From Escherichia phage mobillu, in sequence record MN850622.1: a stretch of DNA of 64,000 nt; one strand, written 5' to 3'. Below the pieces are notes generated by a model. It made no database searches. It had not been told where the DNA came from and saw nothing but the letters and a program-made list of their open reading frames with translations. Made by a program: the position numbers and the translations under genes. Every line of letters starts with the position of its first letter. The stretch's first letter is position 1. Positions 41,577 to 45,798 of this stretch are shown piece after piece.

Positions 41577-43019
41577 GTGGTAGAAATTATTTTGTCTCAT
41601 CTAGTATATGACCAGGCTTATTTTTCTAAGGTCTGGCCTTATATGGATTCTGAGTATTTTGAGCGTGGACCGGCAAAAAATGTCTTTAAAATTATAAAGA
41701 GCCACGTTAACGAATATAATGCAATGCCATCTATCAATGCGTTAAAGGTGGCTTTAGATAACAGTTCTTTAACTGAAGCCGAATATAAAGGAACTTCAGA
41801 CCTAATTGAAAAATTGGCTGATACTCCTGAAGACCATGAATGGTTGGTTAAAGAAACTGAGAAATATGTCCAGCAAAAAGCGATGTATAATGCTACATCC
41901 AAAATCATTGAGATTCAGTCTAATGCTGAACTACCTCCAGAACAACGTAACAAGAAAATGCCTGACGTAGGAGCTATTCCTGATATTATGCGTCAAGCAC
42001 TTTCAATTTCGTTTGATAGTTATGTTGGTCATGACTGGATGGAAGACTACGAAGCACGCTGGCTTTCTTATCTAAATAAAGCACGTAAGGTCCCGTTCAA
42101 ATTAAACATTTTGAATAAAATCACTAAAGGTGGTGCTGAAACAGGTACACTAAACGTTTTAATGGCCGGTGTTAACGTTGGTAAATCTTTAGGCCTTTGT
42201 TCACTTGCTGCAGATTATCTTCAAACAGGTCATAACGTTCTTTATATTTCTATGGAAATGGCTGAAGAAGTTTGTGCTAAGCGTATAGATGCAAACATGC
42301 TTGACGTATCACTCGATGATATCGATGATGGTAACGTATCTTATGCTGAATATAAAGCCAAGATGGAAAAATGGCGTTCAAAAACAACATTAGGACGTTT
42401 AGTAGTTAAACAGTATCCCACTGGTGGAGCTAATGCTAATACATTTCGTGCATTGCTTAATGAGTTAAAACTTAAGAAGAACTTTGTGCCATCTGTAATC
42501 ATGGTTGATTACTTAGGTATTTGTGGGTCTTGTCGTATCAGAGTTTACACTGAAAATAGCTACACATTAGTTAAAGCTATCGCAGAAGAACTTCGTGCAT
42601 TAGCAGTAGAATCTGAAACAGTTCTATGGACTGCAGCTCAAGTAGGACGGGCAGCATGGGATGCTTCGGATATGAACATGAGCGATATTGCAGAATCAGC
42701 AGGTTTACCAGCAACGGCAGATTTCATGTTGGCCGTAATTGAAACCGAAGAACTTGCACAAGCTGAACAACAACTTATCAAACAAATCAAATCACGATAC
42801 GGCGATAAGAATAAGTGGAATAAATTCCTGATGGGTGTACGTAAAGGCAACCAGAAATGGATTGAGATTGAGCAAGAAGGCATGAACACACCTAACACAG
42901 TAAATGAAAACGCAGGTGCTCAGATGCGTCAGGCAGAGGTGAATCGTACGGAACGCGTAGGTAAAGCCAAAGCAACACGTGCTGACCTAGATAGCTTAGC
43001 CAATGAGTTAAAATTTTAA
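41577..43019 (+). CDS. 41: replicative DNA helicase gp41 (DnaB-like)
   Basis: 480 aa; GTG start 41577 with RBS TAAGGAG; Walker A GVNVGKS; N-terminus MVEIILSHL.YDQAYFSKVWPYMDSEYFE matches T4 gp41 as I recall it. Confidence 0.9.
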   Translation: MVEIILSHLVYDQAYFSKVWPYMDSEYFERGPAKNVFKIIKSHVNEYNAMPSINALKVALDNSSLTEAEYKGTSDLIEKLADTPEDHEWLVKETEKYVQQKAMYNATSKIIEIQSNAELPPEQRNKKMPDVGAIPDIMRQALSISFDSYVGHDWMEDYEARWLSYLNKARKVPFKLNILNKITKGGAETGTLNVLMAGVNVGKSLGLCSLAADYLQTGHNVLYISMEMAEEVCAKRIDANMLDVSLDDIDDGNVSYAEYKAKMEKWRSKTTLGRLVVKQYPTGGANANTFRALLNELKLKKNFVPSVIMVDYLGICGSCRIRVYTENSYTLVKAIAEELRALAVESETVLWTAAQVGRAAWDASDMNMSDIAESAGLPATADFMLAVIETEELAQAEQQLIKQIKSRYGDKNKWNKFLMGVRKGNQKWIEIEQEGMNTPNTVNENAGAQMRQAEVNRTERVGKAKATRADLDSLANELKF

Positions 43020-43025
43020 TAAAAA

Positions 43026-43044
43026 GGAGACTTCGGTCTCCTTT
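43026..43044 (+). terminator. rho-independent terminator
   Basis: GGAGAC-TTCG-GTCTCC followed by TTT. Confidence 0.6.
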
Positions 43045-43048
43045 CGGG

Positions 43049-43078
43049 GTTTACATCTTCCTCTAGGCATGATATGAT
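43049..43078 (+). promoter_or_regulatory. candidate early promoter
   Basis: GTTTAC 43049-43054 and TATGAT 18 nt downstream. Confidence 0.4.
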
Positions 43079-43107
43079 GTACTTACACCAACCAAGAGGA
43101 AAACATT

Positions 43108-43482
43108 ATGAATATGTCTCAAGCAATTTTTACTGTAATCACCGAAAACACAACTGTTGAAGTAGTTTCTCCACTGGCAACCTACGTTATTCTTGCTCCT
43201 AAAACTATTGTATCTCGTATGGAAAACATGGGCAAACGTATCGTACAAATAGTTGGAGCCGGAAATCAAAAACTTGATTATCTACGAACCATCAAAGCTT
43301 ATGAACATTTCCAACTCGAAAAAGGTTCTCCTATCCAGGTAGAACTCGTAAATGGTGATATCGTTCGAGCAATGTTCCATCATTTCTATGCATTGAATGA
43401 CCCATCTAAAGCGGTTCGTTTAATTGCATACGACGCAAACCAAAACGAAATCAACGCAGATGTATCTAAATTACGTTTTTAA
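43108..43482 (+). CDS. hypothetical protein
   Basis: ORF 124 aa with RBS AAGAGGAAA. Confidence 0.55.
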   Translation: MNMSQAIFTVITENTTVEVVSPLATYVILAPKTIVSRMENMGKRIVQIVGAGNQKLDYLRTIKAYEHFQLEKGSPIQVELVNGDIVRAMFHHFYALNDPSKAVRLIAYDANQNEINADVSKLRF

Positions 43483-43531
43483 GTTTACTTCTCCAGTAGT
43501 TGTGTTATTATAGATCTATCAACTACTGGAG
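43483..43531 (+). promoter_or_regulatory. T4-type early promoter (PeSL-like)
   Basis: GTTTAC 43483-43488, TG-TTATTATAGA; 12-bp inverted repeat CTCCAGTAGTTG/CAACTACTGGAG. Confidence 0.55.
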
Positions 43532-43537
43532 AACAAA

Positions 43538-43855
43538 ATGAAAACCATCGATTGTAAAGCAGAATTTAAGATTTTTTATCACGGTTCAAGTAGTTCAGCT
43601 AACATCGAAAACATGCTTTGTCCTCCTGAAGAAACAGGAGTTCTGTCTGAAACTGGACGTAAGAAAAACTTGGATCGTGTATTCTTTACTGAAGATATCG
43701 GTTTAGCAAAGATTTATGCAGGACGAGCAGCACGCTCTTATGGAGGTGAACCACGTCTCTATCGAGTAATTTCTCCGGTAGATGTAGTTCAAATGAATGA
43801 TACTAAAGGCGCTACAGTTTATCACGCTGAATGGGCATTTTGCGAGGAAATATGA
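43538..43855 (+). CDS. hypothetical protein
   Basis: ORF 105 aa immediately upstream of and coupled to dmd. Confidence 0.55.
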   Translation: MKTIDCKAEFKIFYHGSSSSANIENMLCPPEETGVLSETGRKKNLDRVFFTEDIGLAKIYAGRAARSYGGEPRLYRVISPVDVVQMNDTKGATVYHAEWAFCEEI

Positions 43856-44040
43856 GCAAATTAACTAAAGTTACTTTTATCGGTTGGTTTAAAAGCGGTG
43901 AGATGTTCACTAAAGATATCATGTTATCAGGTGATCGCGAAGAAATCGAGTGGGTTACGGTACAACTTGCTGAAGTGAACAAAGCATTAGTTAAAGCATT
44001 TGTTAATGACGAGAAAGTTTTCGAAGCAGATTTTCGATAA
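43852..44040 (+). CDS. dmd: Dmd (discriminator of mRNA degradation; antitoxin against RnlA/LsoA)
   Basis: 62 aa from ATG 43852; ..KVTFIGWFK..EMFTK...AEVNKALVKAF..D.KV.E.D matches T4 Dmd as I recall it. Confidence 0.7.
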   Translation: MSKLTKVTFIGWFKSGEMFTKDIMLSGDREEIEWVTVQLAEVNKALVKAFVNDEKVFEADFR

Positions 44041-44052
44041 TTTTAAATAGCT

Positions 44053-44086
44053 GTTTACAAGCCCCACATACTGTGTTACTATCTTT
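44053..44086 (+). promoter_or_regulatory. candidate early promoter
   Basis: GTTTAC 44053-44058, TG-TTACTAT. Confidence 0.4.
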
Positions 44087-44110
44087 CTATCAACTACAGA
44101 GGAAATTGAA

Positions 44111-44479
44111 ATGAAAAAATTAATCGCTTTAGCAATGGTATTTGGATTAACCGGATGTGGTGCCCATGGCTTTATCCCTAATAATGTTGGCCAACTGATT
44201 TATAATCCGAATGTTAAACAGTACGACCAACCTAAAGTTGAAGTGGAAGACCCGGTTACTGTAGGTAATCGAATGATTCAAGCTGATGCCCATGCTCAAC
44301 GTTATCGTGACTCTGATACTGTAGCATTGTCAAAAGAACAGCGCGTTAAAGAACATTGCTTACAGGCTACTGAAATCGCATTCATTCGCTATGTTGAAAC
44401 AACCGGTAAAGAGCCTACCCAGAAACAAATCGCGAATAACTACGTCCAGTGTATTGAACGTTTAAACAAATTTAATTAA
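44111..44479 (+). CDS. hypothetical lipoprotein
   Basis: Signal peptide with lipobox LTGC. Confidence 0.55.
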   Translation: MKKLIALAMVFGLTGCGAHGFIPNNVGQLIYNPNVKQYDQPKVEVEDPVTVGNRMIQADAHAQRYRDSDTVALSKEQRVKEHCLQATEIAFIRYVETTGKEPTQKQIANNYVQCIERLNKFN

Positions 44480-44482
44480 TTG

Positions 44483-44516
44483 GTTTACACCAAAGTTAAA
44501 ATAAGATACTATAAAC
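44483..44516 (+). promoter_or_regulatory. candidate early promoter
   Basis: GTTTAC 44483-44488, TACTATAAAC downstream. Confidence 0.35.
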
Positions 44517-44540
44517 ATAACAAATCAAGAGGAAATTAAC

Positions 44541-44789
44541 ATGGAATTATTCGTAGCTAGTTCAGTAGCAGTTTTAATCGCAGGTATTGGTTCAATCATC
44601 ATTTACATGTTGCCTTGGGTAATCGCACTTATTCGTGGCACAAAAAGCACAACAGCAATCTTCTTTGTATCTTTACTCTTTAACTGGACGATGGTTGGTT
44701 GGATTGGAACTTTAATTTGGTCTATCATTGCCGAAAAGAAATCGGCTCAGCAGCCTCAACAAGTAATTATTATTCGCGAAAAAGAATAA
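44541..44789 (+). CDS. hypothetical membrane protein
   Basis: Two hydrophobic helices; 82 aa. Confidence 0.55.
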   Translation: MELFVASSVAVLIAGIGSIIIYMLPWVIALIRGTKSTTAIFFVSLLFNWTMVGWIGTLIWSIIAEKKSAQQPQQVIIIREKE

Positions 44790-44793
44790 ACTT

Positions 44794-44830
44794 GTTTACA
44801 TTATAGATGGACTATAGTATAGTAGTCCTA
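44794..44830 (+). promoter_or_regulatory. T4-type early promoter (PeSL-like)
   Basis: GTTTAC 44794-44799; inverted repeat GGACTA/TAGTCC. Confidence 0.5.
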
Positions 44831-44852
44831 TCAAATCAACTAAGGAGTTAAA

Positions 44853-45146
44853 ATGAAAAAGTTATCATTGGCAGCAATCTTACTTGCAGTATCATGTGCA
44901 CCGGCTCCAGTTACGGCAGGTTATGATAAAGACCTCTGTGAGTGGTCAATGACTGCAAATCAAGAAGATGTTGAACAACAAATCTTCTCTGATATCATGA
45001 ACATCACTAAACGAGACCGTCCTAATATGGTTAATAAAGTTGTTGAACAACTTAAGTCTGGCGGTATCATGCAGTACAACTATGTTTTGTATTGTGACCC
45101 TAATTTCGATAACAAAGATATCGTAACCGAAATCACAGGTGAATAA
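44853..45146 (+). CDS. sp: Spackle-like periplasmic protein (tentative)
   Basis: 97 aa with signal peptide; AGYDKDLCEWSMTA...YNYVLYCD resembles T4 Sp as I recall it. Confidence 0.5.
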   Translation: MKKLSLAAILLAVSCAPAPVTAGYDKDLCEWSMTANQEDVEQQIFSDIMNITKRDRPNMVNKVVEQLKSGGIMQYNYVLYCDPNFDNKDIVTEITGE

Positions 45147-45798
45147 TATGATTTATTATATGCACAAAAATGCGCCATTTAAATATGGTAAATTTCCTAA
45201 TGCACAATGTTATAATATAACGCCGAATGAAAATAATAACGGATACCATCTCGGTGTAATTTTTGTAATTGTTAAAGATAACGAAATAGTTGCCTGGGCA
45301 GATTTTAAAGGTACAACATATGATGTTAATCCTGTGCCTTTCACATATTACAATATAATGGATTTGGCATATGATTATAATTGGTTTAATCATGACACGT
45401 TGGCTCATATTGAAGGTGTAGGATTTGACATCTCTTATTCTAGCTATTCATTATGTCCTATGAGCCGAGCTCACGGTAAAGATGTATCATATCTTTCAAT
45501 TCGGAAACGTGTAAACTTCAAACGTAGTACAGAGTATGTTGGTGGACTCTTTGTTAAAGATAATAAAATAACCCGTATTAGTTATCCTCTAAGTGTAGGC
45601 CAAAAAGATGTTGATGTTGATTTGGACTTAACTGAAAATAACATTAATCGTATTGCTTCTGTATATTTTGATATCGATGAAAAAATTGTAGTGTGTGGAT
45701 ACGAATTACCACCTGAAGAAAAGGCCGAAGCAATTGAAGTCGAATTAGAAATTTCTGTTGATGACCAAATATTTAATGCATTTATGAATCGAGGTTAA
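45139..45798 (+). CDS. hypothetical protein
   Basis: ORF 219 aa. Confidence 0.55.
   Translation: MNNMIYYMHKNAPFKYGKFPNAQCYNITPNENNNGYHLGVIFVIVKDNEIVAWADFKGTTYDVNPVPFTYYNIMDLAYDYNWFNHDTLAHIEGVGFDISYSSYSLCPMSRAHGKDVSYLSIRKRVNFKRSTEYVGGLFVKDNKITRISYPLSVGQKDVDVDLDLTENNINRIASVYFDIDEKIVVCGYELPPEEKAEAIEVELEISVDDQIFNAFMNRG

What the first reader, a model, noticed from the sequence alone, without database searches (positions are those of the whole stretch)
43538..44040. Dmd antitoxin preceded by a translationally coupled unknown ORF
The 62-aa ORF from 43852 matches the Dmd consensus I recall (WFK..EMFTK, AEVNKALVKAF), the inhibitor of host RnlA/LsoA toxins. It is ATGA-coupled to an upstream 105-aa ORF (43538-43855, YHGSSS..) that has its own PeSL promoter and no T4 counterpart I recognise, possibly a second anti-toxin or anti-defence factor co-expressed with Dmd.
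Basis: partly seen in the sequence, partly recalled or inferred. Interest (0 to 1): 0.5.

Follow-up and report, generated by a model that had tools for sequence, protein, structure and literature searches.

The report
Dmd antitoxin behind small ADP-ribosyltransferase gene
In this T4-like phage the known anti-toxin gene dmd lies directly behind a small, very conserved gene that is predicted to be an Arr-like ADP-ribosyltransferase; a 2022 survey already described the pair, and the enzyme's target has not been tested.

Summary
ORF 43852-44040 is Dmd: Pfam PF17587 E=5e-21, 58% identical to T4 Dmd, 60/62 identical to crystallised Dmd 5I8J. It overlaps the 105-aa ORF 43538-43855 by ATGA, and that ORF has its own promoter-stem-loop cassette. 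T4 has no counterpart at this position.

Iyer et al. 2022 (PMC9503650) predicted a 'p0068-family ART toxin + Dmd antitoxin' pair in such phages, almost certainly this one, and some GenBank records already name the gene 'ADP-ribosyl transferase'.

My comparative analysis argues against an obligate toxin-antitoxin pair:
- Only 11 of 70 related loci have Dmd nearby.
- Most Dmd phages lack the enzyme.
- Identical enzymes sit next to 56%-identical Dmd alleles, or next to no Dmd.

Best reading: an early-expressed ADP-ribosylating effector for host takeover or anti-defence, co-transcribed with Dmd in a variable anti-defence region. Its target is unknown. This is already known as a prediction and of modest interest.

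The parts
43484..43538 (+). PeSL-type cassette: early sigma70-like promoter (TTTACT at 43484, 16-nt spacer, TG-extended TATTAT ending at 43511) inside a 19-nt inverted repeat (43484-43502 / 43520-43538). The right arm carries the GGAG ribosome-binding site of the ART gene and ends at its ATG.
   Evidence: Promoter scan; inverted repeat 19 nt, 89% complementary; definition of PeSL in PMC2839356. Promoter and terminator activity is inferred, not tested.
43538..43855 (+). 105-aa ORF: stand-alone minimal ADP-ribosyltransferase-fold protein (Arr-like / p0068-like family, PHROG 2110). Invariant residues within the phage clade include H15 G16 E38 G40 R41 K43 N44 F49 T51 D53 Y60 R63 S67 G69 G70 G91 E103.
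43844..43855 (+). Coupling junction: GAGG Shine-Dalgarno (43844-43847) made of the ART's C-terminal Glu-Glu codons, then ATGA (43852-43855), where the dmd start overlaps the ART stop.
   Evidence: Sequence. The same geometry (ATGA, or TAA immediately followed by ATG, with GAGGAA upstream) occurs in all 12 related loci that carry Dmd.
43852..44040 (+). dmd: 62-aa Dmd (discriminator of mRNA degradation), the phage antitoxin that inhibits host RnlA/LsoA RNase toxins.
   Evidence: Pfam PF17587 E=5e-21; PHROG 2102; 58% identity to T4 Dmd, E=2e-23; 60/62 identity to PDB 5I8J and a match to 5HY3_B; syntenic with T4 dmd downstream of gene 41.

Best explanation
The locus is a two-gene early transcription unit in the variable gene 41-gene 61 interval of an RB69/Mosigvirus-type T4-like phage. 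A PeSL-type early promoter drives a 105-aa stand-alone ADP-ribosyltransferase (ART) and then Dmd. Dmd translation starts on the ART stop codon (ATGA) and uses a ribosome-binding site built from the ART's last Glu-Glu codons. Dmd does what it does in T4: it binds and blocks host RnlA/LsoA-type RNase toxins so that phage mRNA survives (established for T4 Dmd, inferred here from 58% identity and from near-identity to a crystallised Dmd). The ART is a distant Arr-like member of the histidine class of ARTs. It most likely binds NAD+ through the invariant YHG[ST] strand and the F49/Y60 aromatic pair, and transfers ADP-ribose to a conserved target early in infection. That would make it a host-takeover or anti-defence effector in the manner of T4 Alt/ModA/ModB or the anti-CRISPR ART AcrIF11. 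Its link to Dmd is one of operon organisation in a recombination-prone anti-defence region, not an obligate toxin-antitoxin partnership. Shown: the gene structures, the fold, family membership, the distribution and the lack of obligate linkage. Inferred: NAD+ binding, catalysis, early timing and the effector role. Unknown: the target.
Against: No experiment addresses activity or target, and I found no paper that tested this protein. The window protein itself does not reach any Pfam, NCBIfam or PADLOC model, and its link to Arr is transitive. The Tyr of the H-Y-[EDQ] triad is an invariant Phe here, and no acidic residue at the expected catalytic position is conserved across the wider family. 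E103 is invariant only in the phage clade, where its codon also serves as the downstream ribosome-binding site. Catalysis and its chemistry are therefore uncertain. The tight junction with Dmd is conserved wherever both genes occur. PMC9503650 also reports Dmd next to an unrelated Mod-like ART in Klebsiella phages, which hints at a real ART-Dmd functional link that I could not check.
Confidence: 0.55

Rival explanations
1. Phage-borne type II toxin-antitoxin pair, as proposed by Iyer, Burroughs, Anantharaman and Aravind 2022. The ART is a toxin, perhaps acting on RNA, and Dmd is its cognate antitoxin that binds and restrains it, for example to time its action or protect phage molecules.
For: Published prediction for Escherichia, Shigella and Salmonella phages, together with the report that Dmd also pairs with an unrelated Mod-like ART in Klebsiella phages (PMC9503650). 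The stop/start juxtaposition is conserved in all 12 loci that have both genes. The toxin-first order has a precedent in rnlAB (own knowledge). Dmd is a proven promiscuous antitoxin (references cited).
Against: The linkage is not obligate. 59 of 70 ART loci have no Dmd within 3 kb. An identical ART protein occurs with and without adjacent Dmd (L019/L020). Identical ARTs pair with 56%-identical Dmd alleles (L009/L010). Dmd evolves far faster than the ART. Most Dmd-carrying phages, T4 included, lack the ART. In Klebsiella, Aeromonas and Acinetobacter phages the downstream ORFs are not Dmd. A lytic phage needs no antitoxin for an effector aimed at the host: T4 Alt, ModA and ModB have none (own knowledge). 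Tight junctions are common in this genome (5 of 15 pairs).
Confidence: 0.15
2. The ART and Dmd act on the same enemy. The ART ADP-ribosylates RnlA/LsoA-type or other host RNase toxins, or their activators, giving an enzymatic back-up to Dmd's stoichiometric inhibition. T4 Alt is reported to ADP-ribosylate MazF in a comparable way.
For: Co-transcription and coupled translation give matched timing and dose. The region holds other counter-defence genes. There is precedent for phage ARTs that disable defence proteins: AcrIF11 is the third-best structural match, and Alt interferes with MazEF according to the text quoted.
Against: The ART is most widespread in phages of hosts where no Dmd was found nearby (Klebsiella, Acinetobacter, Aeromonas, Vibrio). 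Its target is therefore probably something far more conserved than RnlA/LsoA. The extreme conservation of the ART contrasts with the arms-race divergence of Dmd.
Confidence: 0.1
3. Tpt1-like chemistry on phosphates rather than protein modification. The enzyme transfers ADP-ribose to a terminal or 2' phosphate of RNA or DNA, or to a nucleotide, to cap, repair or mark nucleic-acid ends during infection.
Against: The protein lacks the N-terminal RNA-binding lobe that Tpt1 needs (105 aa only). By my count from the sequence it has 13 basic against 15 acidic residues, so it is not basic overall. The only sequence-level link is to Arr, a small-molecule ART, not to Tpt1. The evidence from fusion partners is sparse.
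Confidence: 0.1
4. A non-catalytic ART-fold protein: a binder or sponge for NAD+ or NAD-derived immune signals, or a purely structural inhibitor of a host protein.
For: The canonical Tyr is replaced by Phe and the catalytic acid is not clearly assignable. The protein is very small and could act stoichiometrically from a strong early promoter.
Against: The NAD-binding YHG[ST] motif, the aromatic pair and several charged residues are invariant over a very wide host range, which is typical of enzymes. In relatives the same domain sits among catalytic effector modules in polyvalent proteins.
Confidence: 0.07

Closest known systems
T4 Dmd (gene 61.5), antitoxin against RnlA and LsoA; solved structures 5HY3 (LsoA-Dmd complex) and 5I8J
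   Same: Same Pfam family (PF17587), same length, 58% identity to T4 Dmd, 60/62 identity to the 5I8J chain, and the same position downstream of gene 41.
   Different: In T4, dmd is the first gene behind its own promoter-stem-loop and is followed by tifA (61.4). Here it is the second cistron behind the ART, and no tifA follows it.
'p0068-family ART toxin + Dmd antitoxin' system predicted by Iyer et al. 2022 (Viruses 14:1977, PMC9503650)
   Same: Their description (an ART of the HY-[EDQ] clade next to Dmd in Escherichia, Shigella and Salmonella phages) fits this locus exactly. It is almost certainly the same gene pair.
   Different: I could not confirm identity by accession because no supplement is held. 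Their toxin-antitoxin interpretation is not supported by my co-occurrence analysis.
Arr, rifampin ADP-ribosyltransferase (Pfam Arr-ms PF12120; PDB 2HW2, 9IAF, 9IBA)
   Different: The window protein does not itself match PF12120. Only profile positions 1-67 of 99 align in relatives. Arr's Tyr is Phe here. There is no reason to expect rifamycin as a substrate in a lytic phage.
Tpt1/KptA RNA 2'-phosphotransferase, NAD+-binding lobe
   Different: No RNA-binding N-terminal lobe, and no detectable sequence similarity.
AcrIF11, an anti-CRISPR ADP-ribosyltransferase (PDB 6KYF)
   Different: No sequence similarity was detected. AcrIF11 is known from Pseudomonas mobile elements and modifies Cas8f (own knowledge). 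No CRISPR link is evident here.
T4 Alt, ModA and ModB ADP-ribosyltransferases
   Same: ARTs of T4-type phages that act at the start of infection to reprogram host machinery, without antitoxins (annotation; own knowledge).
   Different: They belong to the R-S-E class and are 200-680 aa. The protein here is of the histidine class, has 105 aa, and is absent from T4 at this locus.

Membership tests
Dmd (PF17587, discriminator of mRNA degradation) | Matches the family HMM above the curated threshold over its full length | tested here: met
   75.2 bits against a cut-off of 27, residues 4-62 on profile positions 3-59 of 60; PHROG 2102 E=3.8e-33.
Dmd (PF17587, discriminator of mRNA degradation) | Direct similarity to experimentally characterised Dmd proteins | tested here: met
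   58% identity to T4 Dmd, E=2e-23; 60/62 identical to PDB 5I8J; matches 5HY3_B at E=1.1e-17.
Dmd (PF17587, discriminator of mRNA degradation) | Binds and inhibits RnlA/LsoA toxins | not testable with these tools
   Needs toxin-neutralisation or binding assays.
ADP-ribosyltransferase superfamily (fold level) | ART core fold | tested here: met
ADP-ribosyltransferase superfamily (fold level) | NAD-binding first strand with His-Gly-[Ser/Thr] (histidine class) | tested here: met
   H15-G16 are invariant in both the 50-sequence and the 52-sequence alignments, and S/T17 is conserved. H15 aligns to Arr's HGT.
ADP-ribosyltransferase superfamily (fold level) | Second-strand Tyr and a catalytic Glu/Asp/Gln (H-Y-[EDQ] triad) | tested here: inconclusive
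   The residue aligned to Arr's strand Tyr is an invariant Phe (F49); Y60 lies 11 residues further on. E103 is invariant only in the phage clade and absent in many distant relatives. D88 varies.
ADP-ribosyltransferase superfamily (fold level) | NAD+-dependent transfer of ADP-ribose | not testable with these tools
   Needs biochemistry.
Arr-ms (PF12120, rifampin ADP-ribosyltransferase) | Matches the family HMM above the curated threshold | tested here: not met
   No Pfam hit for the window protein even at E<=1. It is therefore not filed as a member of PF12120.
Arr-ms (PF12120, rifampin ADP-ribosyltransferase) | Detectable homology through intermediate sequences or profiles | tested here: met
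   Profile A2 against the PDB hits Arr only, E=0.0021 and 0.023. 15 of 52 family members hit PF12120 at E<0.01, several above the 25-bit cut-off.
Arr-ms (PF12120, rifampin ADP-ribosyltransferase) | ADP-ribosylates rifamycins | not testable with these tools
   Needs an enzyme assay; not expected from the biology.
Tpt1/KptA RNA 2'-phosphotransferase | Two-lobe architecture with an N-terminal RNA-binding lobe | tested here: not met
   The protein has 105 aa and aligns only to the NAD lobe (75 residues of a 179-residue chain). No sequence match.
Type II toxin-antitoxin pair (ART toxin + Dmd antitoxin) | The two genes are inherited together as a unit | tested here: not met
   11 of 70 ART loci have Dmd within 3 kb. 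Identical ART occurs with and without Dmd. T4-type Dmd phages lack the ART.
Type II toxin-antitoxin pair (ART toxin + Dmd antitoxin) | Co-transcription and coupled translation | tested here: met
   Single upstream promoter, ATGA overlap, and a conserved junction in 12 of 12 loci. However, 5 of 15 neighbouring gene pairs in this genome are equally tight.
Type II toxin-antitoxin pair (ART toxin + Dmd antitoxin) | Toxicity of the first protein, neutralised by direct binding of the second | not testable with these tools
   Needs expression and rescue experiments and binding assays. A two-chain structure prediction was not possible with the tools.
PeSL (promoter-early stem-loop cassette of T4-type phages) | Strong sigma70-like promoter combined with a stem-loop, located in a hyperplastic region | tested here: met
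   The definition is in PMC2839356. Variable gene content of the gp41-gp61 interval is seen.
PeSL (promoter-early stem-loop cassette of T4-type phages) | Promoter and terminator activity | not testable with these tools
   Needs reporter assays or transcript mapping.

The most novel reading that the evidence does not exclude
The 105-aa protein is a minimal, acid-less ART that uses Tpt1-like chemistry to ADP-ribosylate phosphate groups on RNA, for example the ends produced by host RNase toxins or on host tRNA/mRNA. In Mosigvirus-type phages it would work with Dmd as a two-layer system that protects phage mRNA, one layer blocking the nuclease and the other chemically marking, capping or repairing RNA. 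That would be a new class of phage RNA-modifying enzyme present in more than 600 sequenced phages.
Probability: 0.1. Interest if true: 0.7.

Novelty: already known. Interest (0 to 1): 0.3.

Why it matters
Dmd is a textbook phage antitoxin, so confirming it adds nothing new. The neighbouring enzyme is the useful part. It is a tiny ADP-ribosyltransferase-fold protein kept at 62-99% identity in over 600 sequenced T4-like phages infecting many bacterial genera, it is expressed from an early promoter, and I found no experimental study of it. Finding its target would reveal either a new way phages reprogram or disarm their hosts, or a new NAD+-dependent chemistry in a very small scaffold. The comparative result here, that the enzyme and Dmd are linked only in some lineages, bears directly on the published toxin-antitoxin hypothesis. 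It suggests that experiments should look for a broadly conserved host target and not only for a Dmd-ART interaction.

Tried and rejected
1. Direct sequence searches of the 105-aa protein against Pfam (E<=1), NCBIfam, PADLOC and PDB sequences found nothing. The close-family profile A1 against the PDB gave only a chance hit to complement factor I, E=1.2. The link to Arr appeared only after distant relatives were added.

2. The paper's 'p0068 family' could not be tied to this gene by accession because no supplementary files are held. A full-text search for 'p0068' returned only unrelated papers in the 15 listed of 168 hits.

3. Literature searches for experimental work on this ART found none (RB69 + ART + Dmd; Arr-like + phage; Tevenvirinae + ART + anti-defense).

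4. The scan of bacterial and archaeal genomes with the broad alignment A2 failed because it has no conserved stretch. With A1 it returned only 5 loci. Three look like phage sequence. Two are in Patescibacteria, stand-alone ORFs of about 145 aa, one next to an IS integrase, with no informative partner. This gives no support for a cellular toxin-antitoxin or polymorphic-toxin context for the close family. The pattern-based scan cannot see distant relatives.

5. I considered that the small ORFs after the ART in Klebsiella (58 aa, phrog_7619) and Aeromonas (81 aa, phrog_7668) phages might be divergent Dmd. Neither the Pfam Dmd model nor my iterated Dmd HMM matches them. Profile-profile comparison was not done, so very remote homology is not excluded.

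6. I considered that a TifA (61.4) homolog might follow Dmd as in T4 and RB69. None is present in the window.

7. A co-fold of ART and Dmd, which would bear on the toxin-antitoxin model, could not be run, because the structure tool takes single chains from the window only.

8. The whole T4 genome was not scanned. Only bases 1-50000 were tested with the HMMs. Absence from the rest rests on the organism counts and on general knowledge that T4's known ARTs are Alt, ModA and ModB.

Full report
WHAT IS THERE. The window is a T4-like phage of the RB69/Mosigvirus type. Bases 43000-44600 are 98-99% identical to Escherichia phages BEU50 and a20, Shigella phage JK45 and about 140 others. The gene order on the + strand is:
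- gene 41 helicase, 41577-43019
- a 124-aa ORF of unknown function, 43108-43482 (phrog_10668)
- the 105-aa ORF, 43538-43855
- the 62-aa ORF, 43852-44040
- a lipoprotein-like DUF5481 ORF, 44111-44479
- imm, 44541-44789
- spackle, 44853-45146
- a gp61.2/AdfA ortholog, 45139-45798
- further small ORFs, then primase gene 61.

OBSERVATION CHECK. The 62-aa ORF is Dmd. It scores 75.2 bits against Pfam PF17587, whose cut-off is 27. It is 58% identical to T4 Dmd over its full length, E=2e-23, 60/62 identical to the crystallised Dmd of PDB 5I8J, and matches the Dmd chain of the LsoA-Dmd complex 5HY3. Its ATG (43852-54) overlaps the TGA (43853-55) of the upstream ORF. The GAGG ribosome-binding site four bases upstream is made of the upstream ORF's own Glu-Glu codons. 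Upstream of the 105-aa ORF lies a sigma70-like promoter, TTTACT-16-TATTAT with a TG extension. It sits inside a 19-nt inverted repeat whose right arm ends at the ATG. This matches the published 'promoter-early stem-loop' (PeSL) cassettes of T4-type phages (PMC2839356). In T4, dmd follows gene 41 directly behind its own promoter-stem-loop and there is no intervening gene. Neither family HMM finds a homolog in T4 bases 1-50000.

WHAT THE 105-aa ORF IS. It belongs to PHROG 2110, 'unknown function', and has no direct Pfam, NCBIfam, PADLOC or PDB sequence match. Several lines of evidence nevertheless identify it.
- It is unusually conserved. 149 database clusters share 62-99% identity, from phages of Escherichia, Enterobacter, Pantoea, Serratia, Proteus, Erwinia, Acinetobacter, Vibrio and others, and it occurs in 609 GenBank phage records.
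- An AlphaFold2 model built on 50 homologs is confident (pLDDT 89.1, pTM 0.79).
- An exhaustive HMM search of 1.8 billion representative proteins found 221 relatives. Many of them pass Pfam's Arr-ms model on this domain.
- A profile that includes these distant relatives hits only Arr among all PDB sequences, E=0.0021. That alignment puts H15 on the His of Arr's 'HGT' strand, F49 on the Tyr of Arr's second strand, and E38-G40-R41 on Arr's 'EAGR'.

The protein is therefore a minimal, stand-alone, histidine-class ART distantly related to Arr. Some depositors already call it '(rifampin) ADP-ribosyl transferase'.

PRIOR KNOWLEDGE. [quoted passage not shown] They list p0068-like ARTs among the most frequent viral ARTs of the HY-[EDQ] clade. 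I could not verify this by accession, but the description fits this locus and no other ART lies beside Dmd here. I found no experimental study of the protein.

IS IT A TOXIN-ANTITOXIN PAIR? I tested the defining expectation that the two genes travel together.
- Of 70 ART loci retrieved from IMG/VR with 3 kb flanks, only 11 contain a Dmd gene, always immediately downstream.
- Seven loci keep the same gene 41 -> ART arrangement but have unrelated ORFs where Dmd would be.
- L019 and L020 encode 100% identical ART proteins. One is followed by Dmd and the other by a 188-aa ORF with a signal-peptide-like N-terminus.
- L009 and L010 also have 100% identical ARTs, but their Dmd alleles are only 56% identical.
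- Over 45 phage pairs the ART averages 92% identity and Dmd 70%.
- In Klebsiella, Aeromonas and Acinetobacter phages the ART sits in other genomic neighbourhoods, and the ORFs after it are not Dmd by Pfam, PHROG or an iterated HMM.
- Conversely, Dmd occurs in 800 phage records, 566 of them T4-type alleles, and T4-type phages do not appear in the ART distribution.
- Across loci the ART's neighbours fall into 29 downstream and 33 upstream clusters.
- The tight stop/start junction is conserved wherever both genes are present (12 of 12), but equally tight junctions join 5 of 15 neighbouring gene pairs in the annotated near-identical phage.

The linkage is thus lineage-specific and facultative. Dmd behaves like a fast-evolving arms-race gene next to a slowly evolving enzyme. 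This does not exclude an interaction, but it removes the main comparative support for an obligate pair. One point in favour of a real functional connection is the paper's report that Dmd also neighbours an unrelated Mod-like ART in Klebsiella phages. I could not check this.

HOW IT MOST LIKELY WORKS. The cassette promoter should fire early (inferred from its sequence type; PMC2839356). One transcript encodes both proteins, and ribosomes finishing the ART reinitiate on dmd (inferred from the ATGA overlap and the embedded GAGG). Dmd neutralises RnlA/LsoA-type RNase toxins (established for T4 Dmd; inferred here). The ART most likely binds NAD+ through the invariant YHG[ST] strand and the F49/Y60 aromatic pair. 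These two residues are spaced 11 apart, as are the two nicotinamide-stacking tyrosines of diphtheria toxin and PARP1 (own knowledge). It would then ADP-ribosylate a target conserved across many Gram-negative hosts.

Distant relatives of the domain support an effector role. They are fused to a lambda-type portal protein plus a 2H/Acb1-like phosphoesterase, to DUF7178, and to giant 'polyvalent' proteins carrying ART-PolyVal, NUDIX, GNAT and Toprim modules. PMC9503650 describes ARTs in head-associated and polyvalent proteins as host-injected effectors. The close family is almost absent from cellular genomes, with 5 loci in about 185,000 species genomes, of which 3 are probably phage sequence. The surrounding gene 41-gene 61 interval is a recombination-prone accessory region. 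In T4 it holds dmd, tifA (61.4) and adfA (61.2) and has been called a candidate 'anti-TA island' whose other genes are 'attractive anti-toxin candidates' (PMC9391042; PMC11825919).

UNCERTAINTIES ABOUT CATALYSIS. The Tyr of the classical H-Y-[EDQ] triad is an invariant Phe. No acidic residue at the expected catalytic strand is conserved across the wider family. E103 is invariant only in the phage clade, and many distant relatives end in '...AKVVKK' instead. Its codon also forms the downstream ribosome-binding site. The best structural match is the acid-less Tpt1 class. Some relatives are fused to enzymes that process ADP-ribose-phosphate products (2H, NUDIX). The loop GRKKN next to the NAD strand is invariant. 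Together these leave room for phosphate-directed chemistry on nucleic acids or nucleotides, which I rate as the most novel reading not excluded (about 10%).

VERDICT. Dmd is ordinary. The upstream ORF is a member of an already described, experimentally uncharacterised phage ART family, and its pairing with Dmd has been published as a prediction. The new contribution is negative evidence against an obligate toxin-antitoxin relationship, plus a residue-level and structural link to Arr and Tpt1. Novelty: already known. Interest: modest (0.3), resting on the unknown target of a very widespread and very conserved small phage enzyme.

Noticed in passing
L015:3532-3873 and L019:3498-3830 (IMG/VR loci related to the window): In some relatives the Dmd gene is followed immediately by a second, longer (110-113 aa) ORF that also matches Dmd. 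BLASTP to the window Dmd gives 39% identity, E=1.5e-4, and the iterated HMM match is strong. This looks like a tandem Dmd paralog with an extension.
   Followed up: partly
L004:2093-2968, L006:2183-2941 and 13 IMG/VR loci (cluster U2): In Klebsiella, Aeromonas and RB43-type phages the ART is preceded, 0-67 nt upstream on the same strand, by a 250-306 aa protein of the related families phrog_7439/phrog_7204 (unknown function, no Pfam or NCBIfam match). This association is about as frequent as the Dmd one and spans more divergent phages. No homolog is present in the window.
   Followed up: partly
window 43108-43482 (+), promoter-like site at 43050-43078: A 124-aa ORF (phrog_10668, unknown function, no Pfam or NCBIfam family) lies between gene 41 and the ART, with its own promoter-like site and a 10-nt inverted repeat. 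It is absent in Dhakavirus-type relatives, where the ART follows gene 41 directly.
   Followed up: partly
window 44111-44479 (+): The ORF after Dmd (122 aa, DUF5481/phrog_1754) starts MKKLIALAMVFGLTGCG, a lipoprotein-type signal with a lipobox cysteine. Some GenBank records call it an 'immunity protein'. It occupies the slot where T4 has tifA (61.4), and no TifA homolog follows Dmd in the window.
   Followed up: partly
window 44541-45146 (+): imm (superinfection immunity) lies directly upstream of spackle in this phage, whereas in T4 imm lies between genes 42 and 43. Two superinfection-exclusion genes are thus adjacent here.
   Followed up: no
P0165 (954 aa), P0163 (1955 aa), P0139 (3735 aa), P0178 (1046 aa): Distant relatives of the ART domain are embedded in large proteins: lambda-type portal + ART + 2H/Acb1-like phosphoesterase; ART-PolyVal + this ART + NUDIX; GNAT + Toprim + this ART. 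These are polyvalent, probably injected, effector proteins that carry two different ART domains or ADP-ribose-processing modules.
   Followed up: partly
L081:3902-4348 and L082:3923-4354 (Patescibacteria genomes): Stand-alone homologs of about 145 aa (48-51% identity) occur in two candidate-phyla-radiation bacterial genomes, one next to an IS-type integrase. These are the only cellular occurrences of the close family found among about 185,000 species genomes.
   Followed up: partly
L020:3295-3861: In a phage whose ART is 100% identical to that of a Dmd-carrying relative (L019), the Dmd position is taken by a 188-aa ORF with a signal-peptide-like N-terminus (MKKLFIIAFALCGLAKPAYS...) and no family match sought. 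This is an example of cassette replacement right at the ART stop codon.
   Followed up: no
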